Shown here piece after piece: positions 1,920-22,369 of a stretch of DNA of 24,000 nucleotides; position 1 is the first letter of the stretch; each line of letters opens with the position of its first letter. Position numbers and translations under genes: made by a program. The stretch covers positions 105,741 to 129,740 of the forward strand of contig NZ_JADPIE010000001.1 in NCBI RefSeq assembly GCF_015666175.1. Direction: 5' to 3'. The stretch is from Halonatronomonas betaini. Its GTDB lineage: Bacteria > Bacillota > Halanaerobiia > Halanaerobiales > Halarsenatibacteraceae. The notes below the pieces were generated by a model, which saw nothing but the letters and a program-made list of their open reading frames with translations, was not told where the DNA came from and made no database searches.

Positions 1920-1942
1920 TATAAATTAAGGAGATATTGCTT

Positions 1943-2857: not shown

Positions 2858-2886
2858 TTAGATTTAGAAAGAAGGTGATAATATAA

Positions 2887-3747: not shown

Positions 3748-3795
3748 ATCTATTGACCTGGACTTAGAATTTAGACTTTTTAAAAGGAGGCTAAA

Positions 3796-5076
3796 ATGTT
3801 TAAAAAATTATTAAGAACAGGTTTAGTTGGTATTCTGGCATTCGCACTGGTTATAGGTCTTTCATTTAATCTTCAGGCTGATGTTGTAGAAATAGATTAC
3901 TATTACGGGCTTGGCGGATATCTTGGAGAAGTTACAGAAGAGATGATAGAAGAATTTAATGAGGCCAATCCAGATATTCATGTTAGAGGAATAACCTATG
4001 GTGATTTTGATGAGGCACTTCAGGCTTTTCAGGCTGGTGTCGCCGCTGGAGACCCTCCTGCAGCAGTAATGCTTGAACCTACCCCTACTGTTGAATTTGC
4101 TGGTCGAGGTATATTGGCTTCTGTAAGTGATTTATTAGCTGCCGATGAGGATACTGACGCTGATGATTATTATGAAGCTTTCTTTGAAATGTCAATGATT
4201 GATGGAGAACAGTATGCTATTCCATTATTCGGTACTACCCAGGTACTTTATTATCGCCATGACCTTTTTGAAGAAGAAGGTGTAGATCCTGAAATGTTAG
4301 AAACCTGGGAAGGTATGGAAGAGGCGGCCAGAATTTTAGCAGCCAGGGATGATGTTCAGTATGGCTGGATGCCAATGTGGGGGCGCTATAATATGATGGA
4401 TGCGGCCTTTGCCCGTGGCGGACAGATGATCAGTGATGATGGCACAGAAGTTTTAATTGACAGCGAAGAATGGGTTGAGACCTGGGAGGCATTTAGAAGG
4501 TGGATCCATGATGATGAAATTATGGGTATCCATCACAGTGGTGTCGGCTGGGAATACTGGTATGACACAATTGATGATGTTTTAGAAGGTAATGCTGCTG
4601 GTTATACTGGTTCCAGTGGTGATCAGGGAGACCTTGATTTTGATATTGTTTCCGCAGCAATTCAGCCTGGCTGGGAAGGCTATGGAGATCCTGCCCCAGT
4701 TGGTGAAGCTAGATATGGCGTTATCCCTGCAAATATCAGTGAAGAAAAGCAAGAAGCCGCTTATCGCTGGTTAACATTCTTCTCAAGTCCGGAAAAGACT
4801 GCTGAATGGAATATGCGGACAGGTTATTTAGCTGTAAGGGACTCAGCCCAGGACATTCCTGAGTTTGCCGAATTTTTAGAGGATAATCCACAGGCAAGGG
4901 TTCCACTGGATCAATTAGAAGTTGCCTCACCTTACTTTATTGATCCAACTGGTGGAGATATAGAGCAGGCCCTGGATGATGCAGCAGATGCTGTTCAGAT
5001 TGAAAATGTTCCTGCAGAAGAAGCCCTTCAAGAGGCTAAAGAGAGAGCACAAAGAGCACTTGACCGGTTAAATTAA
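3796..5076 (+). CDS. Extracellular solute-binding protein, family 1 (CUT1 ABC transporter substrate-binding component)
   Basis: 426 aa. N-terminal signal peptide (MFKKLLRTGLVGILAFALVIGLSFNLQA|D) without a lipobox Cys. Very D/E-rich mature protein. SD AAAGGAGG lies 7 nt upstream. Confidence 0.85.
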   Translation: MFKKLLRTGLVGILAFALVIGLSFNLQADVVEIDYYYGLGGYLGEVTEEMIEEFNEANPDIHVRGITYGDFDEALQAFQAGVAAGDPPAAVMLEPTPTVEFAGRGILASVSDLLAADEDTDADDYYEAFFEMSMIDGEQYAIPLFGTTQVLYYRHDLFEEEGVDPEMLETWEGMEEAARILAARDDVQYGWMPMWGRYNMMDAAFARGGQMISDDGTEVLIDSEEWVETWEAFRRWIHDDEIMGIHHSGVGWEYWYDTIDDVLEGNAAGYTGSSGDQGDLDFDIVSAAIQPGWEGYGDPAPVGEARYGVIPANISEEKQEAAYRWLTFFSSPEKTAEWNMRTGYLAVRDSAQDIPEFAEFLEDNPQARVPLDQLEVASPYFIDPTGGDIEQALDDAADAVQIENVPAEEALQEAKERAQRALDRLN

Positions 5077-5102
5077 TTTCTTCAGATTAATTATTTAGCT
5101 TT

Positions 5103-5125
5103 TAGATAATATCTATAGATAATAT
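5103..5125. repeat. Tandem direct repeat TAGATAATAT-cta-TAGATAATAT in the SBP/ferredoxin intergenic region
   Basis: Exact 10-nt repeat at 5103-5112 and 5116-5125. Each copy contains a -10-like GATAAT. Function is unknown (internal promoter or operator candidate). Confidence 0.5.
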
Positions 5126-5168
5126 TTCATCAACACCAAATAAAAATTATCTTGTTGGAGGAATTGAA

Positions 5169-5576
5169 ATGAAAAGGATAGTGGCAGATTTTGACCTCTG
5201 TACTGGCTGTGAGACCTGTGCTTTAGTCTGCTCCTTTACCAGGTTAGGAGGATTTAATCCTGATAGATCCTGCATTGACTTGAATCTATTTGCAGATGGA
5301 GTCTTTAATTTTCCAGAGATCTGTCATCAATGCAGCAGAGCTGTATGCAGTCAGGTCTGCCCTACAGGGGCAATGCAGGTTGATAGAGAAGCTGGTGTTG
5401 TTAGGGTAGATCAGGTTAGCTGTATAGCCTGTGGTCAGTGCGAAGAGGCCTGCCCTGTTGATATGGTTAAGGTAGACAAAAATCTTAACTATGCCCTAAA
5501 ATGTGAGCTCTGCCAGGGTGAGGTTCCCTGTGTTAAAGCCTGCCCTGCAGATGCTCTGGGGGTGTATAGCAGATGA
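5169..5576 (+). CDS. 4Fe-4S polyferredoxin, electron-transfer subunit of AOR (AorA-like)
   Basis: 135 aa with four Cys clusters: CTGCETCALVC, CHQCSRAVCSQVCP, CIACGQCEEACP and CELCQGEVPCVKACP. The stop overlaps the AOR start (ATGA at 5573-5576). Confidence 0.9.
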   Translation: MKRIVADFDLCTGCETCALVCSFTRLGGFNPDRSCIDLNLFADGVFNFPEICHQCSRAVCSQVCPTGAMQVDREAGVVRVDQVSCIACGQCEEACPVDMVKVDKNLNYALKCELCQGEVPCVKACPADALGVYSR

Positions 5577-7372
5577 AATATGGCAGTTATATGGGACGCT
5601 TCTTGGAGATTGATTTAACATTTAATGCTACAAAAGAAATTGAGCTTGATGATCAGTTGATAGAAGAATATGTTGGCGGGAAGGGCTTTGGTGTAAAGCT
5701 TTATCAGGATTATATTGATGATTCAGTGGGGCCGCTAAGTCCTGATAATGTTCTTTTCTTTCTGACCGGTCCACTTACTGGAACATTTGCTCCAGCTATG
5801 CGTTCAGTTGTTGTGACTAGATCGCCGTTGACAGGTGGCTGGCTCGATTCCTATTTTGGCGGTTATTTTGGTCAGGCTATTAAATATGCTGGCTATGATG
5901 GTCTGATAATTAAGGGAAAGGCAGATCATTTATCATATTTAGTAATAGATAATGGGAAAGTAGAGGTCAAATCTGGTATAAAATTAAAAAATCTTTCAAC
6001 TTCTGAGACTGCTGCTAGAGTTAAAGAACTACATGGCGGTAATTACAGAGTTGCTACCATTGGTCCGGCCGGTGAAGAACTGGTTAAATATAGTCTAATT
6101 TCCTGTGAGAATAACCGTCAGGCTGGTCGTGGTGGTGCCGGGGCTGTGATGGGTAGCAAGAATCTTAAAGCTATAGCAGTAAAAGGCGATTATTTGATTG
6201 AAGTGGCTGACAGGTCTAAGTTTGTTGAAGCTGTAGATAAAGCCAGGCAGGAACTTGATGAATCTGCTGATATCGATAATTTCCGTGAGAATGGGACACC
6301 ATCATCTATTCCCTTTGCCAATGAAATTGGAATGCTGCCAGCATGTAATTATAATAAAGGACAATTTTCTGAAGCTGAAAACCTTGAAACAGAGCCACAA
6401 TCAGAGCTTTTCTGGAATAGAGATTTAGCCTGTAGTGGTTGCCCGATTGCCTGTGGCAAAATTGGTAGAATTCGCCATGGCAAGTATAGTGGCATGCTGA
6501 CAGATACTGTAGAATACGAGACTCTGGGTCTATTAGGTTCAAATCTGGGGCTTGGTGATATCCGTGAAGTCACTAAACTGGCCAATCTTTGTGATGAATT
6601 AGGCCTTGATACAATTTCAGCTGGTGGTGCAATCGGTTTTTTGATTGAAGCAATAGATAGAAATCTTTATTCTGATCCTGAACTTGGAAGCCTGGATTTT
6701 GGTAAAGCTGAAGCAATCAGAGAAATGATTAAGCTAATAGCCTTTAGAAAAGGTCGGACGGCAGGCTTACTGGCAGAAGGTGTTGAAGAATTTTCTGATA
6801 AGATTGTTGGTGGCAATAAATTTGCTATTCATATTAAAGGCCTTGAGACACCGGCCTGGCCGCCCCGGGGAGCACCAGGGATGGGGCTGGCTTTAATGAC
6901 AGCAGATAGAGGGGGCTGTCACCAGCGTTCATTTCCTGTATCTCATGAAGTTGGTGGTCTGGAATGGCAGGGCAAGAAGCTGGAGCGGCTTTCGACTGAT
7001 GGCAAGGCCAGTTTGGTTGTTTACCAGCAGAACAAGCTGGCGGCCCTTGATACTCTGGTTAAATGTGATTTTGGCACCTATGGCATCAGCGAGGAAAGTT
7101 ATAAGTTGATGCTGGAGGCTGCTACCGATCTTGAATTGTCCGGCGATAATCCCTGGCAGGAGCTTGGTTCTAAAATCTGGGATGAAACCAGAAAGATAAA
7201 TATAATGCACGGCTTCGATAAGGAAGATGATACATTGCCAGCCCGGTTTATGGAAGAACCATTGCCTGATGGCCCGGTTGAAGGTCATATGATTACTGAG
7301 GAAGATCGGGAAGAAATGCTGACTGAATATTACAGGCTGAGAGGCTGGAACTCTGATGGTGAAGTAAATTAA
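5573..7372 (+). CDS. aor: Aldehyde:ferredoxin oxidoreductase, tungsten/pterin AOR family
   Basis: 599 aa. N-terminal AOR domain (GRFLEIDLT...GGKGFG). Fe-S ligand motif CSGCPIAC plus a later GGCHQRS. Pterin-binding DELGLDTISAGG. Confidence 0.92.
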   Translation: MKYGSYMGRFLEIDLTFNATKEIELDDQLIEEYVGGKGFGVKLYQDYIDDSVGPLSPDNVLFFLTGPLTGTFAPAMRSVVVTRSPLTGGWLDSYFGGYFGQAIKYAGYDGLIIKGKADHLSYLVIDNGKVEVKSGIKLKNLSTSETAARVKELHGGNYRVATIGPAGEELVKYSLISCENNRQAGRGGAGAVMGSKNLKAIAVKGDYLIEVADRSKFVEAVDKARQELDESADIDNFRENGTPSSIPFANEIGMLPACNYNKGQFSEAENLETEPQSELFWNRDLACSGCPIACGKIGRIRHGKYSGMLTDTVEYETLGLLGSNLGLGDIREVTKLANLCDELGLDTISAGGAIGFLIEAIDRNLYSDPELGSLDFGKAEAIREMIKLIAFRKGRTAGLLAEGVEEFSDKIVGGNKFAIHIKGLETPAWPPRGAPGMGLALMTADRGGCHQRSFPVSHEVGGLEWQGKKLERLSTDGKASLVVYQQNKLAALDTLVKCDFGTYGISEESYKLMLEAATDLELSGDNPWQELGSKIWDETRKINIMHGFDKEDDTLPARFMEEPLPDGPVEGHMITEEDREEMLTEYYRLRGWNSDGEVN

Positions 7373-7385
7373 TATAATGATTAGC

Positions 7386-7411
7386 AAGGCGGCTTCTGGC
7401 CGCCTTTTTTT
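7386..7411 (+). terminator. Rho-independent terminator
   Basis: Hairpin aaggcggc(t)-tct-(g)gccgcctt (7386-7406) followed by a T run to 7411, 14 nt after the aor stop. Confidence 0.85.
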
Positions 7412-7482: not shown

Positions 7483-7511
7483 TTGTAAAAGTCTGAAAAT
7501 TATATTATAAT
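7483..7511 (+). promoter_or_regulatory. Candidate sigma-A promoter upstream of the TVP38 gene string
   Basis: TTGTAA (7483-7488), 17-nt spacer, then TATAAT (7506-7511). Confidence 0.4.
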
Positions 7512-7541
7512 TAACACAGATTTTAAAAATCTGTGTTAATT
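7509..7541. repeat. 33-nt near-perfect palindrome (aattaacacagattt-a-aaatctgtgttaatt)
   Basis: The 13-nt arms 7509-7521 and 7529-7541 are perfectly complementary, and the inner ttt/aaa also pairs. The palindrome overlaps the candidate -10. No T tract follows. Confidence 0.6.
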
Positions 7542-7561: not shown

Positions 7562-7753
7562 GATATAATAGGGTTTCGGGCAGAACTTAATAAATTGCCT
7601 AGAGCAGCTCATCTTACATTTCCTTTTGGTAGTCTGATTGGTGAACCTGACAATGAAATGCAACAGATAGAGGTTATAAAAGCAGCTTTAAAGCTGATAG
7701 AGACAGCTAAAAAGCCTGGAACAATTGTAGATTTACCTTTCAAATGGCGGTAA
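7562..7753 (+). pseudogene. Possible gene remnant (63 sense codons without a credible start)
   Basis: Open frame DIIGFRAELNKLPRAAHLTFPFGSLIGEPDNEMQQIEVIKAALKLIETAKKPGTIVDLPFKWR* bounded by TGA 7559 and TAA 7751. There is no ATG/GTG with an SD. The composition looks protein-like. Confidence 0.25.
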
Positions 7754-7816
7754 AACTGGATTACAAGAGATGAAGGTATGTACAATAAATCCAGGCAGTC
7801 TTAAAAATTAGGGGAT

Positions 7817-8512
7817 ATGACAATGAAAGCTAATAAGAATAATCGGTTCAAATCATTAATTATATTAGTGATTTTAATTGTAGCTATAATCTTTATTCGG
7901 TTTTTAGGATTACATGAATATATAAGTATTGAAAATATTGAGTTGCTGCAGGATTTGGTTGCAGATTTTGGGCTTTTAGCTCCTATTGCTTATATTTTAC
8001 TCTGGCTTTTAGTCTGCCTCTTATTTTTGCCAGGTCTGCCTGTAACAATACTTTCAGCCTTCTTGTTTGAACCTTTACAGGCCATTATATATACTTCAAT
8101 CGGTTCTACATTAGGTGCAACCCTGGCATTTGTAGTTGGCAGATATGCTGCTCGAGATTTTGTTGCTAACTGGATAAAAGATAAAAAACAGTTAAATAAG
8201 ATTGATAAAGGAGTTAAAAACCATGGCTGGAGAATGCTTATAGTAACAAGGATGGTACCATTATTTCCATTTAATCTTCAGAATTACATCTATGGTTTAA
8301 CTTCTATTAAATTAAAGACTTATATGTTTTTATCCTGGGTCTGTATGTTACCTGCTACCATTGCCTATATTCTAACAGCTTCTTCAATTTATAGAGGAGA
8401 AGGGGATTTAACTCAAACTTTTATTTATCTCGGAATTGCTGGTCTGATATTTTTTATATTGTCATTAATACCAAAATGGTTTAAGAGCAAAGGTTATATT
8501 CAGGATAGTTAA
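7817..8512 (+). CDS. TVP38/TMEM64 (DedA-superfamily, VTT domain) membrane protein
   Basis: 231 aa and multi-TM. VTT-type core LPGLPVTILSAFLF...GATLAFVVGRYAARDFV...RMVPLFPFNLQNY. The second ATG at 7823 has better spacing to AGGGG (7810-7814) and may be the true start. Confidence 0.85.
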   Translation: MTMKANKNNRFKSLIILVILIVAIIFIRFLGLHEYISIENIELLQDLVADFGLLAPIAYILLWLLVCLLFLPGLPVTILSAFLFEPLQAIIYTSIGSTLGATLAFVVGRYAARDFVANWIKDKKQLNKIDKGVKNHGWRMLIVTRMVPLFPFNLQNYIYGLTSIKLKTYMFLSWVCMLPATIAYILTASSIYRGEGDLTQTFIYLGIAGLIFFILSLIPKWFKSKGYIQDS

Positions 8513-8532
8513 TCTAACTGGAGTTGATACAG

Positions 8533-9126
8533 GTGTTGGACACTCATGCAAGAAAATATTTTGACTCGATTATTAATTTCACTGCTAAATCTATAGCAGA
8601 TCTCGGCTTGAATTCAAATCAGGTTACTATTATCGCTGCAGCAGTTGGTGTTTTTACAGGGTTACTGGTCTATCTGGATCAGTTTATTGCTGCTATCATT
8701 GTATTATGGTTATCAGGTTTTTTAGATGCAGTTGATGGGGCAATTGCCAGATTAAATAATAAAGAGTCTATGTGGGGAACTGTTCTAGATATTACTTTAG
8801 ATAGAGTTGTTGAAATATCATTTATTATCGGTCTGGCTTTTAGGTTTCCTGAGATTAGATTAAATTTATTATTTATGACAGTCAGTATAATTCTTTCATT
8901 AACTGTATTTTTAACTGTTGGTGCTGTCTCTGAAAAATCCAGGATAAAGTCATTTCATTATCAATCAGGATTGATGGAGAGAACAGAAGGATTTATATTA
9001 TTTACAGTATTTTTAGTATTACCAGATTTTATTTATGGATTGACTATACTATATGCAGTTCTGGTGTTGTTTACTGCTATTCAGCGCTTTAATGAGGCCA
9101 GCAAATTATTGAGTAGGGCTGATTAA
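8533..9126 (+). CDS. CDP-alcohol phosphatidyltransferase family protein
   Basis: The signature D-x2-DG-x2-AR-x8-G-x3-D-x3-D is present as DAVDGAIARLNNKESMWGTVLDITLD. The protein is multi-TM. GTG 8533 lies 9 nt after GGAG; the ORF-track TTG at 8524 abuts the SD. Confidence 0.85.
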   Translation: MLDTHARKYFDSIINFTAKSIADLGLNSNQVTIIAAAVGVFTGLLVYLDQFIAAIIVLWLSGFLDAVDGAIARLNNKESMWGTVLDITLDRVVEISFIIGLAFRFPEIRLNLLFMTVSIILSLTVFLTVGAVSEKSRIKSFHYQSGLMERTEGFILFTVFLVLPDFIYGLTILYAVLVLFTAIQRFNEASKLLSRAD

Positions 9127-9176
9127 TATTTATTGATGGATTAGATAAAAGTTTTATTAAGAAGGCAGGTGAAATA

Positions 9177-9668
9177 ATGTTATTTACTATTGCTATATTG
9201 ATTGTTATTTTGGCCGGAATAATTGCGTCAGCTTTTGTAGAATATATATTACATAAGCTATTCCTTCATCAGGAAGGCCATATTCACCTTTTAGAGCATC
9301 ATAAAAATTTTAAGCCTCAAGAGAGTACATTTACCCGGGAGAGTTTTGAGTTAGATGAAGTTTTTTCTGGGATTAAATATTTACTTGCAAACTTTCTGCT
9401 GTATCTTCCAATTGGCATTATAATAGGTATTTATTCTTTCAATTTAGGTTTAGTATTTTTATTAAGTGGACTTTTATATTCAGCCTGGATTGAAATTGTT
9501 CACTATCATTATCATCATATCGATGGGATAAAATTTGAAAGATTTAAATTGTTTAATTATTTAAAATCAAATCATAAGATTCATCATGCCTTATATAAAT
9601 TCAATTTCGGGATTGGTTCAAGTATCTGGGATATTATACTGGGCACAAGCAGAAAAGGTTGGAACTGA
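9177..9668 (+). CDS. Small membrane protein of the fatty-acid hydroxylase / sterol desaturase (tri-His-box di-iron) superfamily
   Basis: 163 aa. His boxes HKLFLH, HYHYHH and HKIHH interleaved with hydrophobic segments. Its size resembles the smallest members of the superfamily. Confidence 0.65.
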   Translation: MLFTIAILIVILAGIIASAFVEYILHKLFLHQEGHIHLLEHHKNFKPQESTFTRESFELDEVFSGIKYLLANFLLYLPIGIIIGIYSFNLGLVFLLSGLLYSAWIEIVHYHYHHIDGIKFERFKLFNYLKSNHKIHHALYKFNFGIGSSIWDIILGTSRKGWN

Positions 9669-9712
9669 TATGTTTGGATTGTTAATGGTTAGCTTATGGC
9701 GGGGAGGTTGAG

Positions 9713-11128
9713 ATGGCAAAATTTGATTATGATATAGCTGTAATCGGAGGGGGCTCAGCTGGTTTAACAGCTGCTTTTACAGCCAATGCGGTAAAGAAAA
9801 ATGTCGTGATAATTGAGCAAGATAGATTAGGTGGAGAATGTACCTGGACAGGTTGTGTGCCCAGTAAGGCTCTCCTAAAAGCTGCCAGAGTTGCTTATCA
9901 AAGCCAACATGCCAGCAAGTATGGTATTATCAATGATTGTAATATTGATATGAGTGGAGTAATGAATTATGTCCATAAAGTTCAGGAAGAAATCTATCAA
10001 AAAGAGAAGCCAGAAGTATTAAGAGCAGATGGGATCGGTGTTTTAATCGGAAAAGCCGAATTTATAGACAGCCATACATTAAGTGTAAACCAGAATAAAA
10101 TTAGGGCTCATAAGATAGTTATTGCAACAGGTTCCTCTCCAGCTATTCCGCCAATAGAGGGTATAGAAGATGTTTTTTATTTAACCAATCAAACCTTATT
10201 TGGCCTGGAAAAGTTGCCAGCATCATTAATAATTATTGGTGGTGGTCCAATAGGAATTGAGATGGCCCAGGCTTTAAATAGATTAGGTGTAGAAATTAAA
10301 CTTGTGCAGAGAGGCGAAAGAATTTTAAAGAAGGAAGAACCGGCTTTAAGTGGGGCTCTGGCTGAAAAGTTACGCAAGGAGGGCGTTGAGCTATTAACCG
10401 GTTATGAGGCTGTTAAAATTAAAGAAGAAAATCAATTAATACTAACTGTGAGTAATAGGAAAATGGAAAAAGAATTAAAAGCGGAAAAAGTCTTAATAGC
10501 AGCCGGGAGAAAAGCTAATATTACTGGGTTTAATCTTGATAAGATAGGTCTTGAAACTGGCAGCCAGGGGATTATAACCGATAGTAAGATGCAGACCAAT
10601 ATTTCTAATATTTATGCCTGTGGTGATGTTGTAGGCCCCTATCGTTTTAGTCATATATCATATCATGAAGGTATAACTGCAACAATAAATGCAATCTTAC
10701 CTTATCCTGTTAAGAAAATGAACTATGATAATGTATTATGGGTTACCTATACAGACCCAGAATTAGCCCATTTAGGCCTGACTGAGGAACAGGCCAGGGA
10801 TAGATATGGCGATAGCATAAAAGTCTATAATATGGACTATTCTGAGCTGGATAGGGCTATGACAGATGGCCAGGCAGGCCAGGCTAAATTTATCTGCGAT
10901 AAAAGAGGTAAATTGTTAGGAGCTCATATCTTTGGTGCTAGAGCAGGTGAGATTATTCATAGCTGTCAGATTATAAAAACGATGGGAATGCCTTTTAAGA
11001 AATTACAATCTGTGATTCATTCATACCCGACTTATTCTGAACTTGTAAGGGACGGAGCTAAACTGGCCTATATAGGTGACTGGCAAGATAGATTGAATTT
11101 AGTTAATAAATTAGCCTGGTGGAAATAA
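9713..11128 (+). CDS. Class I FAD-dependent pyridine nucleotide-disulfide oxidoreductase (dihydrolipoamide dehydrogenase / mercuric reductase-like)
   Basis: 471 aa. GGGSAG FAD fold, redox-active GGECTWTGCVPSK (CxxxxC), second Rossmann fold IIGGGPIGIEMA, and C-terminal dimerisation domain with HSYPTYSE. It lacks the MerA C-terminal Cys pair and the NmerA domain. Confidence 0.9.
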   Translation: MAKFDYDIAVIGGGSAGLTAAFTANAVKKNVVIIEQDRLGGECTWTGCVPSKALLKAARVAYQSQHASKYGIINDCNIDMSGVMNYVHKVQEEIYQKEKPEVLRADGIGVLIGKAEFIDSHTLSVNQNKIRAHKIVIATGSSPAIPPIEGIEDVFYLTNQTLFGLEKLPASLIIIGGGPIGIEMAQALNRLGVEIKLVQRGERILKKEEPALSGALAEKLRKEGVELLTGYEAVKIKEENQLILTVSNRKMEKELKAEKVLIAAGRKANITGFNLDKIGLETGSQGIITDSKMQTNISNIYACGDVVGPYRFSHISYHEGITATINAILPYPVKKMNYDNVLWVTYTDPELAHLGLTEEQARDRYGDSIKVYNMDYSELDRAMTDGQAGQAKFICDKRGKLLGAHIFGARAGEIIHSCQIIKTMGMPFKKLQSVIHSYPTYSELVRDGAKLAYIGDWQDRLNLVNKLAWWK

Positions 11129-11142
11129 GGAGGAGTGATAAC

Positions 11143-11805
11143 TTGATATTAGGTATTAGTGGAAGTGGTCGTAAAAATGGAACCACTTCAGGTGTAATTA
11201 AGTATATTTTAGAGAATACAGGAGAAGAATATGAGTACATATCACTGGCAGGTAAGCAGATTAATGGCTGCATAGGATGTACTGAATGTGCAGCTGATAG
11301 TTTCTGTAAGGTGAAAGATGACTGGCAGGAAATTGGTTATAAGATGCTGGAAGCTGATGCAATAGTTTTTGGTGCACCGGATTATTATGACACCTTAAAT
11401 GCTCTGGCTCATGCCTGTCTTGAAAGAACTTATTGTTTCCGGCATAGAGAGAAATTTAAGCTGGCAGGTAAATTAGGTGTGGCAGTGGCTGTTGATGGTG
11501 ACCCAGAGGTTTCCAGAGTTGAAACTTACATCAAAAGGATGATGGATTCAAATCAGATGGCAATTATGGATAAACTACATGTCGAAGGTTATTCTCAGTG
11601 TTTTACCTGTGGTTATGGTGAGGACTGTGCAGCTGGCACAGTTGTTAAGAGACATGGCTTTTTAGATGAGATTAAGACTGAGCATCTGCCTGATAAATTT
11701 TCTGATCAACCAGATAAAATGTTAAAAGCTAAAATGATTGCTAGAAATCTTGGCTCATTACTAAAAGATAGAAGTGATAATAATGAAAACATCAAGGAAA
11801 ACTGA
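11143..11805 (+). CDS. Iron-sulfur flavoprotein (Isf-like), NADPH-dependent FMN reductase fold
   Basis: LILGISGSGRKNGTT flavodoxin-like N-terminus. Compact CIGCTECAADSFC (CX2CX2CX5C) as in Methanosarcina Isf. A second CFTCGYGEDC group is present. TTG 11143 follows AGGAGG (11128-11133). The ORF-track GTG at 11119 lies inside the upstream gene. Confidence 0.8.
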   Translation: MILGISGSGRKNGTTSGVIKYILENTGEEYEYISLAGKQINGCIGCTECAADSFCKVKDDWQEIGYKMLEADAIVFGAPDYYDTLNALAHACLERTYCFRHREKFKLAGKLGVAVAVDGDPEVSRVETYIKRMMDSNQMAIMDKLHVEGYSQCFTCGYGEDCAAGTVVKRHGFLDEIKTEHLPDKFSDQPDKMLKAKMIARNLGSLLKDRSDNNENIKEN

Positions 11806-12202
11806 TTATGGGATTCATGCTTTAATGATTTTAGCAAAAAAGGATGGTGAAGAGCTATCGGTTAATGATCTTGCTGAGATTGAAAATGTTTCAACTTCCT
11901 ATCTGGCCAAGGTTATGCAGGAACTTTCAAATTATAATATTGTCAGTTCTTCAGAGGGTAAACAGGGTGGTTATACGCTCAACCTTCCTACTGAAGAAAT
12001 AACCCTGGCCCAGGTAACAGATATTTTTGAAACTGATGAAGGAGTATTTGATTGTGTTGATGATCTCCATGGTTGTAATATCAGAGATAGGTGTAAAATT
12101 CATTTTGTCTTCAGAAAGGCCTATCAGAAAATGCTGGCAGAACTTGAGGCAACAACTATTGCAGATCTATTGGATCCAGAAATAAAGGGTATCGTCAAAT
12201 AA
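11783..12202 (+). CDS. Rrf2-family transcriptional regulator with three-Cys (probable Fe-S) motif
   Basis: MKTSRKTDYGIHALMILA... winged-helix N-terminus typical of Rrf2. CVDDLHGCNIRDRC (Cx6Cx5C) occupies the position of the cluster ligands. The gene overlaps the Isf stop. GTG 11774 is an alternative start. Confidence 0.85.
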   Translation: MKTSRKTDYGIHALMILAKKDGEELSVNDLAEIENVSTSYLAKVMQELSNYNIVSSSEGKQGGYTLNLPTEEITLAQVTDIFETDEGVFDCVDDLHGCNIRDRCKIHFVFRKAYQKMLAELEATTIADLLDPEIKGIVK

Positions 12203-12213
12203 GGGGGGGAATT

Positions 12214-12759
12214 ATGGCCTGGATTGATATGGTTGATGAAGATAAAGCAGAGGGGAAATTAAAAGAAGTATATGAAAGAATTACTGGAGGAGGTAGCTCA
12301 AGGGTTGCCCATATATTAAAGGTTCATTCTTTAAATCCTCAGGTGCTGGAGGATCACCTTAACTTATATAAGACAATAATGTTTGCTAGTTCGAATATTT
12401 CTCGGAAACAGCGGGAGATGGTTGCAACGGTAGTTTCGGCTATTAATGACTGCCATTATTGAGTAATTCATCATGGAGCGGCGCTCCAGAAACTGATTAG
12501 AGATAAAAGTGAAGGCGAGAAGATTTTAAATCAGCTTATTGATGATTACAGGGCTGCTGAAATTACTGATAAAGAGAAGGCTATGCTGGAATATGCTGAG
12601 AAGCTAACCAGGAAACCGGCATCTATTGATATAACAGATATTGAGAGTTTAAGAGAATATGGACTTGGTGATCGGGATATTCTTGATTTAAATCAGGTGG
12701 TGGCTTATTTTAATTATGTCAATAGAGTGGCAGATGGCCTGGGGATAGAGTTAGAGTAG
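12214..12759 (+). CDS. AhpD-core / carboxymuconolactone decarboxylase family 'peroxidase-related' protein with in-frame TGA (12460-12462) read as selenocysteine
   Basis: SD AAGGGGGGG lies before ATG 12214. The same frame continues for 98 codons past the TGA to TAG 12757-12759. The motif SAINDCHY-TGA-VIHH matches NxCxYCxxxH with TGA at the second Cys. A hairpin follows the TGA. Confidence 0.7.
12467..12500 (+). promoter_or_regulatory. Candidate bacterial SECIS stem-loop
   Basis: Upper stem tggagc/gctcca (12474-12479 / 12483-12488) with a GGC apex. Lower stem 12467-12473 / 12494-12500 with one mismatch and a 3'-side gaaac bulge. The apex G residues lie about 20 nt 3' of the UGA. Confidence 0.5.
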
Positions 12760-12882: not shown

Positions 12883-14037
12883 ATGGTTAAAAAGCTAACA
12901 GAATATCTGATTAATTTGAAAAATAATATCTTATCACAGGAAGATTTTTTAATGACTGAAAAGTTAAAATCTGAATTTGATAAAGAAACTTTTAATCATA
13001 ATACTTTTATTATTATTATTTTAGGCTATTTTCTTTTCTTTGAACAACTTTTTTATGCGTTTTTTGTTAGAGAACCAGGCAGTACCTATCAACAAATACA
13101 TTTTATAACTGCTCTTTTAATGATTCTATTTGCTGGAATTGCAACTTATATTTATCAAAAAGATTTTACAAAAGTTAATAAATATCACAAAAAGTTTGTG
13201 ATTATTTTTGTTTTGAGTGGATTGCTTATAGCCATAGTGAGAACATCATTACTACAATTACAACTCTATTCATTGCCTACAATTTATTTAGCTGTAATTT
13301 ATGGCATGGCAGTTGCTTTTTACTTTCCACCAATACTGAGCTTTGCATTATACAGTTCTTCATCTATCCTTTTGATATTTTTATTATCTGGCCAGCCTAT
13401 TGCTCAGGAGTTTTCATATGTCCAGGATATAATCTCAAACAATATAATTGCCTGGGTTGTTTCAGTTCTCAACTTTAATAGTTATTTCAATGGTTTTATT
13501 AAAAGCAAAAAGATTTCTGATATGAATGGTAAATTAAGATATATATCAGAAAGGGATCCTTTGACTGACCTATATAATAGACGTAAATTGAATGACTTAT
13601 TGATTGATGAGATTAAAAGAATAGGGAGAACTAATGAGTTTTTTTCAGTTATAATTTTAGATATTGATAATTTCAAAAATGTCAATGACACTTACGGACA
13701 TAATATAGGGGATGAAGTATTAGTCAATTTTAGTGAAATATTAAAATCTAATATTCGTGAACTTGATAAGCCAGGTCGCTGGGGCGGGGAGGAATTTTTA
13801 ATAATTGCACCAGCTACAGATAAGAAAGGTGCAGAGAATCTAGCTAAAAAGTTAAAAAAATTAATTAATAATAATGATTTTGGTAAACCAGAGAGATTAA
13901 CTGCAAGCTTTGGTGTAGCTACTTATAATCATGAAGAGTCAGTTTATCAATTGATCAACCGGGCTGATAAAGCTCTTTATGAGGCCAAATCAACTGGCAA
14001 GAATAGAGTTATTGTTTATAATCAAGGTATTTCATAG
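12883..14037 (+). CDS. Membrane-bound diguanylate cyclase (multi-TM N-terminal sensor + GGDEF domain)
   Basis: 384 aa with a hydrophobic N-terminal half. FKNVNDTYGHNIGDEVL, the active site GGEEF, and an I-site RELD exactly 5 residues upstream of GGEEF. Confidence 0.9.
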   Translation: MVKKLTEYLINLKNNILSQEDFLMTEKLKSEFDKETFNHNTFIIIILGYFLFFEQLFYAFFVREPGSTYQQIHFITALLMILFAGIATYIYQKDFTKVNKYHKKFVIIFVLSGLLIAIVRTSLLQLQLYSLPTIYLAVIYGMAVAFYFPPILSFALYSSSSILLIFLLSGQPIAQEFSYVQDIISNNIIAWVVSVLNFNSYFNGFIKSKKISDMNGKLRYISERDPLTDLYNRRKLNDLLIDEIKRIGRTNEFFSVIILDIDNFKNVNDTYGHNIGDEVLVNFSEILKSNIRELDKPGRWGGEEFLIIAPATDKKGAENLAKKLKKLINNNDFGKPERLTASFGVATYNHEESVYQLINRADKALYEAKSTGKNRVIVYNQGIS

Positions 14038-14060
14038 GTGATTGTACTGGAGGATTTAAA

Positions 14061-15455
14061 ATGAAGATTAATAAAATCATGAAAAAATTAATTTTAGCTT
14101 ATATAATATATTTCTTATTGGCTGGAATAATTGTGTTTGGCTTTTTGCCAGTTCCAGGAGTTGAATCGGCTATGGATTATTCTCTTGATGAGTCGATTTC
14201 AGTTAGTAATGGTCAGGATGAAGCTTTATTGCTTGAAGGGCTAGAGATTGGCAAGCTTGCTAGAGTTAATCTGATAGAGAATGCCGAAGAGAGCCTGGAT
14301 ATAGCATATTACATGGTGCATAAAGGTGATGCTGCAGATATCTTTTATGGCCAGATTTTAGATGCTGCAGACCGTGGTATTAAGGTAAGGCTAATAATTG
14401 ATGGAATCTATTCAGCTCAGCCTCAAAATAGAAGTTATATTTATGCCATGACTTCCCATGAAAATATAAAGTTTAAAACATATGAGCCTATCAATCCGTT
14501 AAGGCCCTGGGCTGTCCAGAACCGTCTCCATGATAAAATTGTTATTGCGGATGGCAATTATGCATTAATTAGTGGCAGGAACATAGGTGACAAATACTTT
14601 GATCCAGATATTGAAACTCCATCGATTGATAGGGATGTTCTTTTAGTAAATGAAGAGCCTGGAGCTGACTCTGTATTGACTCAGTTTGATGATTATTATG
14701 ATAAATTATGGGAAAGTGAATTTAATAAAAATTACAGTGATTTGAACTCAGCCAGGGAGCGGCTAGCCAGAAGGAGGGTTGAGGAGATAAATAATAGTCA
14801 TCAGGAATTGCAGGATAAATATAGTGAACTATTTGGCCAGGATCTTGATTGGCAGAATTATTCATATCCAACAGATCAGGTAATGCTAGTCCATAATCCC
14901 CTGGAGAGGTTTAATAAGCAACCCAGGGTCTGGCAGGTTTTAGCTGGACTTTTTGAAGAGGCTGAAGATAGCATTATGGCCCAGAGTCCATATATTATTC
15001 CAACTGATCAGATGTTAAAGTTTTTGGACCAGGAAGAAATTACAGCTGGAAAGATTAATCTATTGACTAATTCATTAACAAATAGTTCAAATCCATTAGC
15101 TGGCTCAGGTTATAGCCTCTTTCAGGATGACTTGAAAGATTTTATTGGTGATAGAGGTAAGCTTTACGAGTATTATAATAATGGAGCTATTCATGCTAAA
15201 TCCTATGTTATAGATGAGAGGATCAGCGCAATTGGTTCCTTTAACCTTGACCACAGGAGTGCATTTTTAAGCACAGAGACTATGGTCATTATAGAGAGTG
15301 AACCATTTGCTGAGAACTTTTTAAGTCAGGTTGATGGGTTGATAGAACAGTCCTACCCATATCAGGAAGCTCCAGAGGAAGAGGTTTCAACTGCTAAGGA
15401 AATTAGTTTGCGCGGCTTATCTTATTTTAGCAGGTTTTTTAAGTTTATGCTCTGA
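14061..15455 (+). CDS. Phospholipase D / cardiolipin synthase-like protein with two HKD motifs and an N-terminal membrane anchor
   Basis: HDKIVIADGNYALISGRNIGD and HAKSYVIDERISAIGSFNLD (HxKxxxxD...GxxN twice). N-terminal hydrophobic helix LILAYIIYFLLAGIIVFGF. Starts 23 nt after the GGDEF gene. Confidence 0.88.
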   Translation: MKINKIMKKLILAYIIYFLLAGIIVFGFLPVPGVESAMDYSLDESISVSNGQDEALLLEGLEIGKLARVNLIENAEESLDIAYYMVHKGDAADIFYGQILDAADRGIKVRLIIDGIYSAQPQNRSYIYAMTSHENIKFKTYEPINPLRPWAVQNRLHDKIVIADGNYALISGRNIGDKYFDPDIETPSIDRDVLLVNEEPGADSVLTQFDDYYDKLWESEFNKNYSDLNSARERLARRRVEEINNSHQELQDKYSELFGQDLDWQNYSYPTDQVMLVHNPLERFNKQPRVWQVLAGLFEEAEDSIMAQSPYIIPTDQMLKFLDQEEITAGKINLLTNSLTNSSNPLAGSGYSLFQDDLKDFIGDRGKLYEYYNNGAIHAKSYVIDERISAIGSFNLDHRSAFLSTETMVIIESEPFAENFLSQVDGLIEQSYPYQEAPEEEVSTAKEISLRGLSYFSRFFKFML

Positions 15456-15657: not shown

Positions 15658-16413
15658 ATGGACTTGATTGATAATAAATTAGATAAGGATACACCTGTAC
15701 CGTTATATTATCAATTAAAGAATATTATTAAGGAACAGATTGAAAAAGGTTATTTAAAACCAGGAGATACTGTTCCTCCTGAAAGAATTTTAGCTGAGAG
15801 TTATGATGTAAGTAGGCCTACTATTAGAAAAGCATTATCTGAACTTGTTAATGAGGGGCTTTTAAATCGAGAAAAAGGTAAAGGGACATTTGTGTCTGAG
15901 CCTAAATTTGAATTTAGCTTTGTTCAAAAATTAATGACTTTTTATGATGATATGGTAACTAAAGGATTTAAGCCTAAAACTAATGTAATTACTAAAGAAT
16001 TAAAGGAAGCTGATAGGGATTTAGCTGAAAAACTATCTATTTCAGTAGGGGATAAATACATTTATATTAAAAGGGTAAGAAGTATAAAAGGTGAACCGAT
16101 TGTAATTGTTGAAAATCATATTCCATATCATTTATGTGAAGATATAATTAGCATTAATTTAAGTGATAAGTCCTTATATAATTCTATGTATGAAAAATGT
16201 GGTTTAGAGAATTATCGTGCAGAAATGTCTATTGCACCAGCATTAGCTAATCATTATGATTCAAAGCTGTTAGAAATAGATGCTGGCTCTCCCATTCATC
16301 ACATTAAAACAATCTCTTATACAAAAGATAATATACCAATGGACTACTTTGAATCCAGATTTCGTGGTGATAGAGGCGAGATAAAGGTAAACTTATGTGA
16401 TAATGGAATATAA
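15658..16413 (+). CDS. GntR-family transcriptional regulator, HutC subfamily (wHTH + UTRA effector domain)
   Basis: 251 aa. PLYYQLKNIIKEQIEKGYLKPGDTVPPERILAESYDVSRPTIRKALSELVNEGLLNREKGKGTFV is a canonical GntR wHTH. The C-terminal half is UTRA-like. Confidence 0.9.
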   Translation: MDLIDNKLDKDTPVPLYYQLKNIIKEQIEKGYLKPGDTVPPERILAESYDVSRPTIRKALSELVNEGLLNREKGKGTFVSEPKFEFSFVQKLMTFYDDMVTKGFKPKTNVITKELKEADRDLAEKLSISVGDKYIYIKRVRSIKGEPIVIVENHIPYHLCEDIISINLSDKSLYNSMYEKCGLENYRAEMSIAPALANHYDSKLLEIDAGSPIHHIKTISYTKDNIPMDYFESRFRGDRGEIKVNLCDNGI

Positions 16414-16492
16414 TAAAATAAAAACAAATTTTTTTACCAATTAGCAAAAACATCGTTTCACAATACAAAACATAATCAAGGAGGCCAATAAT

Positions 16493-17140: not shown

Positions 17141-17156
17141 AAATGGAGGTATTATT

Positions 17157-18182: not shown

Positions 18183-18309
18183 GATTAATTAAACTGAATA
18201 TTATAAGGAGGTGATAACTAAAGAAGTGCAATGACACAATTTTTATCATTTGTCGGCTTAGGAATTTGACTTAAAAACCAAAATAAACTCAAAAAAGGGG
18301 AGTTTACTA

Positions 18310-19344: not shown

Positions 19345-19373
19345 AATATATCATTAATGAGTTAAATTAAAAT

Positions 19374-19407
19374 AATTCACCCTCTGCTTTAAAGTAGAGG
19401 GTGAATT
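19374..19407 (+). terminator. Strong hairpin after the binding-protein gene (intra-operon attenuator / partial terminator)
   Basis: 12-bp perfect stem aattcaccctct / agagggtgaatt around a 10-nt loop. Only a weak T-rich tail follows. The next gene starts 34 nt downstream. Confidence 0.55.
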
Positions 19408-19440
19408 ATTAAATATACTTCTTATTTAGGAGGTAACATT

Positions 19441-20931: not shown

Positions 20932-20968
20932 TGTATATTTAATATAGAAAGGTAAGGTGTAAAATTAA

Positions 20969-21922: not shown

Positions 21923-21938
21923 GTAGGAGGAATAATTA

Positions 21939-22346: not shown

Positions 22347-22369
22347 ACCATTTAAGAGGATGTGTATTT

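What the first reader, a model, noticed from the sequence alone, without database searches (positions are those of the whole stretch)
7817..12759. Seven-gene co-directional string coupling membrane-lipid enzymes to a thiol/selenol redox module
From 7817 to 12759 the genes are separated by 45 nt or less, or overlap, and no hairpin terminator was seen between them. The order is TVP38/DedA membrane protein, CDP-alcohol phosphatidyltransferase, tri-His-box hydroxylase, Lpd/MerA-like flavoprotein disulfide reductase, Isf-like Fe-S flavoprotein, Rrf2 regulator, then the AhpD-like (Sec) protein.

TVP38 domains are known to occur adjacent to or fused with MerA-like reductases in bacterial annotations, without an assigned function. 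DedA-superfamily proteins are implicated in lipid flipping.

This combination joins a head-group transferase and a lipid-modifying di-iron-type enzyme with a complete reductase/peroxidase-like chain and its own Fe-S sensor regulator. It suggests a dedicated system that makes, modifies or repairs (for example de-peroxidises) a particular membrane lipid. I know of no characterised system with this composition.
Basis: inference. Interest (0 to 1): 0.7.

Follow-up and report, generated by a model that had tools for sequence, protein, structure and literature searches.

The report
Redox-regulated lipid synthase, flippase, reductase cluster
The seven genes are real and probably one transcript, but their core is a local variant of a widespread, still uncharacterised bacterial module (also in E. 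coli as ydjX/ydjZ-ynjF) that pairs an unusual phospholipid synthase and a DedA-type flippase with sulfur/selenium redox enzymes.

Summary
Seven co-directional genes lie at 7817-12759, each matching its family above threshold, with gaps of 20, 50, 44, 14, -23 and 11 nt and no convincing terminator inside.

- TVP38/DedA + YnjF-like CDP-alcohol phosphatidyltransferase + flavoprotein disulfide reductase is strongly conserved. It is contiguous in 44 of 80 species loci, and also present in Babeliales.
- This trio usually sits with a YnjBCD-type ABC importer, and one protein fuses YnjF to YnjB.
- E. coli ydjXYZ-ynjABCDEF is the same kind of cluster, of unknown function.
- The hydroxylase occurs only in this Halanaerobiaceae lineage.
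- FMN-reductase/Rrf2/AhpD(Sec) is a separate block. In relatives it lies 3.5 kb away behind its own copy of the same promoter and 27-bp palindrome that precedes the lipid block here.

So the window holds a deletion-compacted single operon of what is a two-operon regulon in relatives, probably repressed by the Fe-S Rrf2.

The function is not known. The most likely reading is synthesis and flipping of a special phospholipid coupled to thiol/selenol redox chemistry. Lipid de-peroxidation is not supported.

The parts
7483..7511 (+). Promoter-like site, TTGTAA-17 nt-TATAAT
   Evidence: Found by the scan. Conserved base for base in four copies from relatives (alignment A4).
7509..7541 (.). Perfect 16-1-16 palindrome (core TAACACAGATTTT-N-AAAATCTGTGTTA, 7512-7538) overlapping the -10 box. 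Candidate operator, probably for the Rrf2 protein.
   Evidence: one match, none in 100 shuffles. The same motif stands before block A and before block B in L086, and before block B in L089/L090. There are only 5 hits in 1.65 Mb of fetched loci.
7575..7757 (+). 3' remnant (61 codons) of a GrdB/PrdB-like UxxC selenoprotein gene. It now lies in the 5' leader of the operon.
   Evidence: The gene is intact in L086 7873-8622, with TGA at 8329-8331. It scores 87.9 bits on TIGR01918, cutoff 65.45.
7817..8512 (+). TVP38/VTT (COG0398-type DedA) membrane protein, YdjX-like
   Evidence: PF09335, 98.8 bits. 32% identity to E. coli YdjX, E 1e-34. Five hydrophobic segments.
8533..9126 (+). YnjF-like CDP-alcohol phosphatidyltransferase (the ORF is open from TTG 8524)
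   Evidence: PF01066. The complete motif D68xxD71GxxAR...G85xxxD89xxxD93 is invariant in the family. 27% identity to E. coli YnjF. Scores are below the cutoffs for AIP and PIP synthase.
9177..9668 (+). Small membrane di-iron (His-box) hydroxylase of the FA_hydroxylase family, specific to this lineage
   Evidence: PF04116, 44.1 bits. Invariant His residues at 26, 31, 37, 41, 42, 109, 113, 133, 136 and 137. Only 5 homologues, all in the same gene block.
9713..11128 (+). Class I flavoprotein disulfide reductase with CTWTGC redox centre, HxxxxE motif and a C-terminal ...KLAWWK tail. Not MerA, Lpd or GR.
   Evidence: 49% identity to the Babeliales homologue that sits between YnjF-like and two VTT genes.
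11143..11805 (+). FMN_red flavoprotein with Isf-type Cys motif CX2CX2CX5C plus CX2CX5C
   Evidence: PF03358. Cys positions. The start is set by comparison with L086.
11783..12202 (+). Rrf2-family regulator with three Cys (C94, C101, C107, numbered from 11774), presumably binding an Fe-S cluster
   Evidence: PF02082, 117 bits, and TIGR00738. Nearest solved structures are RsrR and NsrR. Cys positions.
12214..12759 (+). AhpD-like 'peroxidase-related' selenoprotein with motif C80-H-Y-U83 (TGA at 12460-12462)
   Evidence: TIGR01926, 154.6 bits. The TGA and the sequence downstream are conserved in L086 and L002. Nearest PDB entries are 2pfx and 3c1l.
12474..12488 (+). SECIS-like hairpin UGGAGC-GGC-GCUCCA, 11 nt after the UGA
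   Evidence: stem present; z-score only -1.5. Conserved in three relatives, with one G-U change. No Rfam hit.

Best explanation
The string is a single operon, compacted by deletions, of what in relatives is a two-operon, redox-controlled envelope regulon.

Block A (7817-11128) is a local variant of a widespread module. In that module:
- a YnjF-like CDP-alcohol phosphatidyltransferase makes an unusual phospholipid from CDP-diacylglycerol and a polar, probably anionic, alcohol;
- in most other genomes that alcohol is supplied by a YnjBCD-type ABC importer;
- a COG0398 DedA/TVP38 protein moves the lipid across the membrane;
- an NAD(P)H-dependent flavoprotein disulfide reductase carries out thiol/disulfide (or persulfide/selenol) chemistry coupled to it.

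In this Halanaerobiaceae lineage an O2-dependent His-box hydroxylase has been added.

Block B (11143-12759: Isf-like flavoprotein, Rrf2, AhpD-like selenoprotein) is an oxidant-defence and sensor unit. The Fe-S Rrf2 protein binds the 27-bp palindrome over the promoter and represses both blocks until its cluster is damaged.

Shown: the gene content, the conservation of the core, the YnjF-YnjB fusion, the shared promoter/palindrome and the deletions. Inferred: the lipid product, the direction of transport, the reductase substrate, the identity of the repressor and the inducing signal.
For: - Families and intact catalytic motifs.
- In 80 species loci fetched with the transferase as anchor, TVP38-YnjF-PNDR is contiguous and co-directional in 44. 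The full order SBP-permeases-ATPase-TVP38-YnjF-PNDR occurs in 42. Within -6/+7 kb, the ABC ATPase is present in 75, TVP38 in 67 and PNDR in 55.
- The SBP is YnjB family: NF008633, 460 bits against a cutoff of 203.
- The trio also occurs in Candidatus Babeliales, with PNDR 49% identical.
- E. coli has ydjX-ydjY-ydjZ-ynjA(AhpD-like)-ynjBCD-ynjE(rhodanese), with ynjF convergent. Pairwise homology to the window and to the Bacillota genes is shown.
- P0278 is a natural fusion of YnjF-like and YnjB-like parts.
- A close relative (transferase 83%, TVP38 72% identical) pairs the same two genes with a YnjE-like rhodanese and CGGC proteins instead of PNDR.
- Other partners are HdrD-like CCG proteins, OsmC, MsrAB and GrdB-like proteins. 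In all, 66 of 80 loci have a thiol/sulfur redox partner.
- The same promoter and palindrome precede both blocks in L086 and block B in L089/L090.
- The window junctions show clean deletions.
- PMC10127716 reports PNDR as the commonest fusion partner of COG0398 DedA proteins and proposes them as phospholipid flippases.
Against: - No experiment exists for any member. The literature searches found none.
- The window itself has no YnjBCD, so the source of the head group here is unknown.
- The window's PNDR is only 33-39% identical to the Bacillaceae cassette PNDRs. Five closer or comparably close PNDR homologues (47-65% identity) have no lipid genes nearby: Halanaerobium, Halanaerobacter, Nitrospirae and two others.
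- The hydroxylase needs O2, while the host family is anaerobic.
- The E. coli cluster is FNR-dependent, that is, expressed anaerobically (PMC3688515), which fits poorly with a purely oxidant-induced role.
- The Rrf2-palindrome link is by association only.
Confidence: 0.45

Rival explanations
1. Two unrelated modules that merely sit side by side: a lipid/DedA module and an oxidative-stress module (PNDR, Isf, Rrf2, AhpD). In this reading the reductase belongs to the stress module, and there is no chemical link between lipid and redox genes.
For: - In L086 and L089 the blocks are 3.5 kb apart, and block B has its own promoter.
- In Halanaerobacter the PNDR homologue sits with FMN_red, CMD/AhpD, a second FMN_red, a peroxiredoxin-type gene and Rrf2, with no lipid genes.
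- Several other PNDR homologues stand alone.
Against: - TVP38-YnjF-PNDR is contiguous in 44 of 80 species loci and also present in Babeliales.
- DedA-PNDR fusions exist.
- When PNDR is absent, other sulfur or thiol redox proteins take its place next to YnjF/TVP38.
- An identical promoter/operator stands on both blocks.
Confidence: 0.2
2. A sulfur/selenium (chalcogen) trafficking system. The DedA protein and the ABC system move an inorganic or small organic S/Se species. Rhodanese, PNDR, HdrD-like, AhpD-like and GrdB-like proteins process it. The transferase has an accessory role and does not make a lipid substrate for the DedA protein.
For: - Partners are rhodanese (YnjE-like, 38% identity), CGGC proteins and two selenoproteins in the ancestral cluster.
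- A 363-aa PNDR in 36 of 80 loci is closest to TIGR03169, 'N-terminal to SelD' (275 bits, cutoff 310). The HdrD-like partner is closest to NF045663, 'dicluster near Sec'.
- From my own knowledge, a DedA protein was linked to selenite uptake in Ralstonia (Ledgham 2005).
Against: - The transferase is the most constant member, and it is fused to the SBP in P0278, so it is hard to see it as accessory.
- From my own knowledge, most Bacillaceae carrying the cassette are not known to use selenium; this was not checked here.
- Both NCBIfam matches are below their cutoffs.
Confidence: 0.15
3. One reading: a repair system that reduces peroxidised membrane lipid, with PNDR passing electrons to an AhpD/OsmC-type peroxidase.
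For: AhpD-like and OsmC-like proteins recur near the cassette. An oxidant-sensing type of regulator is present.
Against: - A CDP-alcohol transferase is a biosynthetic enzyme, not a repair enzyme.
- AhpD/OsmC partners are present in only a minority of loci: OsmC in 6; TIGR01926-type AhpD in 5 Bacillaceae loci within 10 kb but only 1 within -6/+7 kb.
- The E. coli cluster is switched on anaerobically.
- No acyl-chain-handling enzyme is conserved in the module.
Confidence: 0.1
4. An inositol-lipid pathway, with the transferase acting as a phosphatidylinositol-phosphate synthase.
For: The nearest NCBIfam models and all the nearest solved structures are AIP/PIP synthases. R94 is kept, and the equivalent of R195 probably is too (PMC6506517).
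Against: - Scores are far below the cutoffs: 103 against 180, and 76 against 170.
- The strictly conserved phosphate ligand R155 is an invariant Gly in this family.
- No inositol-phosphate synthase gene was seen in any of the neighbourhoods examined.
Confidence: 0.05

Closest known systems
Escherichia coli ydjXYZ-ynjABCDE / ynjF gene cluster (b1750-b1758), function unknown, FNR-dependent
   Same: It contains two COG0398 DedA/TVP38 proteins, an AhpD-like protein, an Fe-S protein, a sulfur redox enzyme and the YnjF CDP-alcohol transferase. Homology: YdjX 32%, YnjF 27%. YnjB, YnjD, YdjY, YdjZ and YnjE are 36-60% identical to the Bacillota cluster genes.
   Different: - The window has no YnjBCD importer nearby.
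- It uses a flavoprotein disulfide reductase instead of a periplasmic rhodanese.
- It adds a His-box hydroxylase, an Isf-like flavoprotein and an Rrf2 regulator.
- Its AhpD-like protein belongs to another subfamily (TIGR01926; only 26% over 74 residues to YnjA) and carries selenocysteine.
COG0398 DedA proteins fused to pyridine nucleotide-disulfide oxidoreductase domains (PMC10127716)
   Same: The same two families are functionally linked. The DedA member is a putative phospholipid flippase.
   Different: Here the two are separate genes, with the transferase and hydroxylase between them. None of the 120 closest PNDR homologues is fused to a DedA domain.
Phosphatidylinositol-phosphate / archaetidylinositol-phosphate synthases (PgsA1, RsPIPS; PDB 6h53, 5d92)
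   Same: Same fold family, identical metal-binding signature motif, and R94 conserved.
   Different: E about 1e-9 to 1e-11 only. Scores are below the family cutoffs. The R155 equivalent is Gly. The gene context is entirely different.
Phosphatidylcholine synthase working with a choline ABC importer (own knowledge)
   Same: The logic is a CDP-DAG-dependent transferase fed by an imported head-group alcohol. This is supported here by the operon linkage and the YnjF-YnjB fusion.
   Different: The transferase clade and the binding-protein family both differ. No redox partners are involved.
Rrf2 Fe-S sensors NsrR / RsrR / IscR and their palindromic operators
   Same: Same family, three Cys ligands, and a long A/T-centred inverted repeat over the promoter.
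   Different: It does not reach any equivalog cutoff. The operator sequence and regulon content are new. Binding was not tested.
Iron-sulfur flavoprotein Isf of methanogens (own knowledge) and AhpD-like CxxU selenoproteins
   Same: FMN_red fold with a compact CX2CX2CX5C motif. AhpD core domain with Sec at the second redox position.
   Different: No Isf structure was matched by sequence, so 'Isf-like' rests on the motif alone.

Membership tests
YnjF-type CDP-alcohol phosphatidyltransferase | CDP-alcohol signature DxxDGxxAR...GxxxDxxxD intact | tested here: met
   D68, D71, G72, A75, R76, G85, D89 and D93 are invariant in 20 family members, the window protein included.
YnjF-type CDP-alcohol phosphatidyltransferase | Closer to E. 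coli YnjF and its Bacillota relatives than to characterised transferases | tested here: met
   52-60% identity to a large Bacillota family, some members of which carry the source name 'YnjF'. 27% identity to E. coli YnjF, E 6e-14. PIP synthases reach only 43-47 bits.
YnjF-type CDP-alcohol phosphatidyltransferase | Neighbourhood with YnjBCD-type ABC importer | tested here: not met
   Present in 69-75 of 80 related loci but absent from this 24-kb window. The rest of the genome is not available.
Phosphatidylinositol-phosphate / archaetidylinositol-phosphate synthase | Score at or above the NCBIfam equivalog cutoff | tested here: not met
   NF040950: 103.3 against 180. NF045883: 76 against 170.
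Phosphatidylinositol-phosphate / archaetidylinositol-phosphate synthase | Inositol-phosphate phosphate ligands R94, R155 and R195 (PMC6506517) | tested here: not met
   R94 is kept. The R155 position is an invariant Gly156. The R195 equivalent is probably R188.
COG0398 DedA / TVP38 (YdjX, YdjZ type) | VTT/DedA domain, with best E. coli match among the YdjX/YdjZ paralogues | tested here: met
   PF09335, 98.8 bits. YdjX 32%, E 1e-34; YdjZ 27%. The UptA model gives only 23.8 bits against a cutoff of 250.
Mercuric reductase MerA | C-terminal Cys pair and N-terminal metal-binding domain; score at or above cutoff | tested here: not met
   There is no Cys in the last 50 residues and no N-terminal extension. 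TIGR02053: 362 against 454.
Dihydrolipoyl dehydrogenase / glutathione reductase | Score at or above the equivalog cutoff | tested here: not met
   TIGR01350: 365 against 409. GR models: 251-305 against 480-606. The redox motif is CTWTGC rather than the usual CxNxGC (comparison from own knowledge).
FA_hydroxylase (membrane di-iron His-box enzymes) | Domain match and the full set of His boxes | tested here: met
   PF04116: 44.1 against 31. HxxxxH, HxxxHH, HxxxH and HxxHH are invariant in 6 sequences. The substrate cannot be determined.
Iron-sulfur flavoprotein (Isf) | FMN_red/flavodoxin-like fold plus a compact four-Cys motif near the N terminus | tested here: inconclusive
   PF03358, 63.6 bits, with C51/C54/C57/C63. 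There is no NCBIfam hit and no Isf structure hit.
Rrf2 Fe-S regulators | Rrf2 domain with three conserved Cys ligands | tested here: met
   PF02082, 117 bits; TIGR00738, 110 against 73. Cys at 94, 101 and 107. Cluster binding cannot be tested here.
AhpD-like 'peroxidase-related' (TIGR01926) selenoprotein | Family score, CxxC/CxxU motif, conserved in-frame TGA, and a downstream hairpin | tested here: met
   154.6 against 81.8. CHYU motif. The TGA and downstream coding sequence are conserved in L086 and L002. A hairpin lies 11 nt downstream, but it is statistically weak.

The most novel reading that the evidence does not exclude
The YnjF-like enzyme makes a phospholipid whose head group carries a redox-active sulfur (or selenium). 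The COG0398 DedA protein flips this lipid between leaflets, so that it carries reducing equivalents or sulfane sulfur across the membrane. It would be used outside by lipoprotein rhodaneses, YdjY-type Fe-S proteins or MsrAB, and re-reduced inside by the flavoprotein disulfide reductase or HdrD-like proteins. This would be a lipid-based counterpart of the DsbD/CcdA protein relay, and it would assign a substrate to the bacterial TVP38-type DedA proteins.
Probability: 0.12. Interest if true: 0.9.

Novelty: new variant of a known kind. Interest (0 to 1): 0.6.

Why it matters
COG0398/TVP38-type DedA proteins, YnjF and the whole ydj-ynj cluster are long-standing 'y-genes' with no assigned substrate. 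The reason DedA domains are so often fused to disulfide reductases is an open question (PMC10127716).

The comparison made here yields a concrete, testable module: head-group importer, transferase, flippase and thiol reductase. It also yields a Rosetta-stone fusion (YnjF-YnjB) and an experimentally tractable counterpart in E. coli.

The window adds a regulatory handle, a defined 27-bp operator with an Fe-S Rrf2, and shows that selenoproteins are recruited to the module in anaerobes.

If the lipid product is found, it would define a new bacterial phospholipid class and a function for bacterial relatives of TMEM41B/VMP1.

Tried and rejected
- **Upstream ABC transporter of the window (1937-5076) as the YnjBCD counterpart.** Rejected. 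It is a CUT1/Ugp-like system with only 22-23% local similarity to the permease cluster and no SBP match.
- **MerA, Lpd, GR and PIP/AIP synthase assignments.** Rejected on cutoffs and missing residues.
- **Structure prediction of the hydroxylase** from its 6-sequence alignment. Mean pLDDT was 50.6 and pTM 0.37, too poor for a fold search, so none was run.
- **Metagenome-wide scan for the operator palindrome.** It returned 4 loci. Two are the L086 organism again. The other two look unrelated: one has the motif in tRNA-like sequence, and neither has ORFs matching the cluster proteins. No new regulon members were found.
- **Rfam scan of the window.** No hits, so there is no known riboswitch or SECIS model.
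- **Contexts of six PNDR homologues.** Only the Babeliales one has the lipid genes, so the PNDR clade as a whole is not tied to the module.
- **C-terminal tail of the PNDR as an amphipathic membrane anchor.** The clade has conserved Trp/Phe/Lys-rich tails. The hydrophobic moment of the window's tail is unremarkable, at the 23rd percentile, so I make no claim.
- **Literature searches** for ynjF, ynjA-D, ydjX/Y/Z, and for TVP38 + oxidoreductase + transferase, found no functional study. The selenium comparative-genomics paper does not mention these genes.

Full report
**1. The observation.** ORF listing and translation confirm seven co-directional genes between 7817 and 12759. Each matches its family above Pfam's gathering score: TVP38/VTT, CDP-alcohol phosphatidyltransferase, FA_hydroxylase, class I pyridine-nucleotide disulfide oxidoreductase (PNDR), FMN_red, Rrf2 and CMD/AhpD. 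NCBIfam places the last in TIGR01926, 'peroxidase-related enzyme' (154.6 bits, cutoff 81.8). The frame reads through TGA 12460-12462, giving C-H-Y-U. The TGA and the coding sequence after it are conserved in two relatives (84-86% protein identity over the whole frame). A small hairpin, UGGAGC-GGC-GCUCCA, lies 11 nt downstream; on its own it is weak, with z = -1.5.

A strong terminator follows the preceding AOR gene at 7386-7406. Inside the string there are only two weak intragenic matches, no more than in shuffles. With starts corrected by comparison with relatives, the gaps are 20, 50, 44, 14, -23 and 11 nt. The only deviations are one 50-nt gap and a revised FMN_red start (TTG 11143, behind GGAGG), which removes the supposed overlap with the reductase gene.

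**2. Where the window comes from.** The exact hydroxylase protein is on a 39-kb Logan contig. The nearest named relative is a Halanaerobiaceae MAG with the same gene order (L002). The hosts are therefore anaerobic halophiles.

I used the transferase as anchor: 926 homologues, typically 52-60% identical in Bacillota. An alignment-based scan of one genome per species returned 387 loci, and the best 80 were kept. ORF clustering shows a strikingly constant architecture: SBP, two permeases (or one fused), ATPase, TVP38, transferase, PNDR.
- TVP38-transferase-PNDR is contiguous and co-directional in 44 of 80 loci.
- The full seven-gene form occurs in 42 of 80.
- Within -6/+7 kb, the ABC ATPase is present in 75, the SBP in 72, TVP38 in 67 and a PNDR in 55.

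The SBP belongs to NF008633/PRK11622, the YnjB family (460 bits, cutoff 203). This pointed to E. coli, where the annotated locus reads ydjX (DedA), ydjY (4Fe-4S), ydjZ (DedA), ynjA (AhpD-like), ynjBCD (ABC), ynjE (rhodanese), with ynjF (CDP-alcohol transferase) convergent. BLASTP confirms homology:
- window TVP38 to YdjX: 32%, E 1e-34;
- window transferase to YnjF: 27%, and 32% for the Bacillus members;
- YnjB and YnjD to the Bacillota SBP and ATPase: 41% and 38%;
- YdjZ, YdjY and YnjE to clostridial cluster genes: 60%, 55% and 36%.

Outside Bacillota and Proteobacteria, a Candidatus Babeliales genome has YnjF-like (divergent), PNDR (49% identical to the window's), VTT, VTT. An all-against-library HMMER search found 38 representatives at E ≤ 1e-30 and 360 at E ≤ 1e-10. 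One of them, P0278, is a 591-residue natural fusion of a YnjF-like domain (37% to the window) and a YnjB-like binding protein (39% to E. coli YnjB). The core coupling is therefore real, old and widespread.

**4. What is not conserved.** The hydroxylase has only five detectable homologues (66-93% identity), all from metagenomes and all in the same block, VTT-transferase-hydroxylase-PNDR. FMN_red, Rrf2 and the hydroxylase occur with the transferase only in the window's own lineage. AhpD-like TIGR01926 genes (47-52% identical) lie within 10 kb in five Bacillaceae loci, in varied arrangements. E. coli has the distantly related YnjA, so an AhpD-type partner is recurrent but not constant.

**5. The string is a compacted composite.** L086 (about 80-90% protein identity) is syntenic from the Fe-ADH gene through AOR to the AhpD-like gene, but it carries extra genes.
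- Between AOR and VTT it has a 127-aa membrane protein and a GrdB/PrdB-like protein that reads through a TGA to give a U-P-I-C motif (TIGR01918 87.9 bits against 65.45).
- Between PNDR and FMN_red it has a discoidin-domain protein, a second PNDR and a secreted 238-aa protein.

In the window only the last 61 codons of the GrdB-like gene survive, at 7575-7757. The PNDR stop codon is joined directly to the RBS of FMN_red. The more distant L089/L090 share the long form, so the long form is the likelier ancestor, and the window/L002 lineage has lost about 3.5 kb there.

**6. Regulation.** A perfect 16-1-16 palindrome (7509-7541; core TAACACAGATTTT-N-AAAATCTGTGTTA) overlaps the -10 box of a TTGTAA-17-TATAAT promoter. 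The same promoter-plus-palindrome cassette occurs twice in L086, once before the first gene of the lipid block and once immediately before FMN_red-Rrf2-AhpD. It also occurs before the latter block in L089/L090. There are only these five hits in 1.65 Mb of fetched loci. The two blocks are thus co-regulated in the relatives. In the window the second copy was deleted, leaving one seven-gene unit behind one cassette.

The only regulator encoded in the cluster is the Rrf2 protein. It has three Cys (94, 101, 107), and its nearest solved relatives are the redox sensor RsrR and NsrR. That it is the repressor, and that oxidants relieve repression, is inference.

**7. What the core might do.** The transferase has the complete catalytic motif. 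Its nearest characterised relatives are PIP/AIP synthases, but only at E about 1e-9 to 1e-11 and far below the family cutoffs. Of the three phosphate ligands of PgsA1 (PMC6506517), R94 is kept, R195 probably is, and R155 is an invariant Gly. This argues for a related, probably anionic, but different acceptor. The operon linkage and the fusion to a YnjB-type binding protein suggest the acceptor is imported.

The DedA member is of the COG0398/TMEM41-like type. These are proposed phospholipid flippases whose commonest fusion partner is a PNDR (PMC10127716).

The partners that alternate next to YnjF/TVP38 are nearly all sulfur or thiol redox proteins:
- class I PNDR (55 loci);
- a 363-aa PNDR nearest to TIGR03169, 'N-terminal to SelD' (36 loci; 275 bits, below the 310 cutoff);
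- HdrD-like CCG/4Fe-4S proteins (6 loci);
- OsmC (6 loci);
- MsrAB (5 loci);
- lipoprotein rhodaneses and YdjY-like proteins (3 loci each);
- a GrdB-like protein.

In a close Halanaerobiaceae relative the orthologous transferase (83%) and TVP38 (72%) pair with a full-length YnjE-like rhodanese (38% to E. coli YnjE) and two CGGC proteins instead of PNDR and hydroxylase. Sixty-six of 80 loci have at least one such partner.

Several partners carry signal or lipoprotein sequences (seen in the translations), whereas PNDR, FMN_red and AhpD have no hydrophobic segment. The module therefore seems to join redox proteins on both sides of the membrane. This is the basis of the more novel reading, a lipid-borne thiol or sulfane shuttle, to which I give about 0.12.

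**8. Caveats.**
- No member has been studied experimentally, as far as the searchable literature shows.
- The window has no YnjBCD.
- The PNDR clade (CTWxGC motif, basic aromatic C-terminal tail) is often found without lipid genes. In Halanaerobacter it sits with FMN_red, CMD and Rrf2, so it could belong primarily to the stress block.
- The E. coli cluster is FNR-dependent (PMC3688515), that is, anaerobic. The hydroxylase here needs O2, and the Rrf2 type suggests induction by oxidants. These signals are not obviously the same.

**9. Verdict.** What is there is a new variant of a widespread but uncharacterised module (YnjF-like transferase + COG0398 DedA + thiol/sulfur reductase, usually + YnjBCD). 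In this lineage it has gained a hydroxylase and is co-regulated with an Isf/Rrf2/AhpD(Sec) block through a shared operator. Lipid de-peroxidation is the least supported part of the original idea. Interest is moderate to high, because the analysis turns several orphan families, including E. coli y-genes, into one testable hypothesis.

Noticed in passing
window 7575-7757 (+); L086 7873-8622: A 61-codon 3' remnant of a GrdB/PrdB-like UxxC selenoprotein gene lies in the leader of the operon. The intact gene, with in-frame TGA, is present in the relative L086. A GRDB-like gene also directly follows the YnjF-like gene in Ammoniphilus (L009).
   Followed up: yes
window 747-7372 (+): This stretch holds an Fe-ADH, two CUT1-type ABC permeases, an SBP, a 4Fe-4S ferredoxin and an aldehyde:ferredoxin oxidoreductase. 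The Fe-ADH scores above the cutoff for choline dehydrogenase GbsB (595 against 550 bits). The unit is fully syntenic in L086 and looks like a separate alcohol/aldehyde utilisation unit ending at the terminator 7386-7406.
   Followed up: partly
window 12883-15455 (+): A membrane-bound GGDEF diguanylate cyclase and a PLD/cardiolipin-synthase-like protein with an N-terminal membrane anchor follow the string with no detected terminator. They are not syntenic with L086, so I did not count them as part of the system, although the second is another lipid enzyme.
   Followed up: partly
L086 11980-15346: In relatives, three genes lie between the two blocks: a membrane-anchored discoidin (F5/8 type C) domain protein, a second class I PNDR (32% identical to the first) and a secreted 238-aa protein with no family match. 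A second, 248-aa FMN_red follows the AhpD-like gene.
   Followed up: partly
P0278 (591 aa): A natural fusion of a YnjF-like transferase (residues 1-193) with a YnjB-like ABC substrate-binding protein (about residues 205-589).
   Followed up: yes
L044 12125-13216 and 35 other Bacillaceae loci: A 363-aa PNDR-like gene next to the cassette is closest to TIGR03169, 'N-terminal to SelD' (275 bits, cutoff 310). The clostridial HdrD-like partner is closest to NF045663, 'dicluster-binding protein near Sec'. This is a possible selenium connection that I could not test.
   Followed up: partly
P0126-P0245: The PNDR clade shares an unusual CTW(T/K/S/Y)GC redox motif and a conserved Trp/Phe/Lys-rich C-terminal tail (for example ...KLAWWK...FIKLLKKIF).
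   Followed up: partly
L094 8931-9365: In the Babeliales locus a small HAD-family phosphatase gene lies convergent to the two VTT genes. It could be the phosphatase of a phosphatidyl-X-phosphate intermediate. This is a single case.
   Followed up: no
L083 2517-6608: A related Halanaerobiaceae cluster contains two CGGC-domain proteins and a 159-aa membrane protein, with no family match, between the rhodanese and the VTT gene.
   Followed up: no
window 15658-23296 (+): A GntR/UTRA regulator, a KDPG-type aldolase, a PfkB kinase and a ribose-type ABC transporter form an ordinary sugar-acid utilisation cluster. At the other edge of the window (59-577) there is a truncated M20 amidohydrolase.
   Followed up: no
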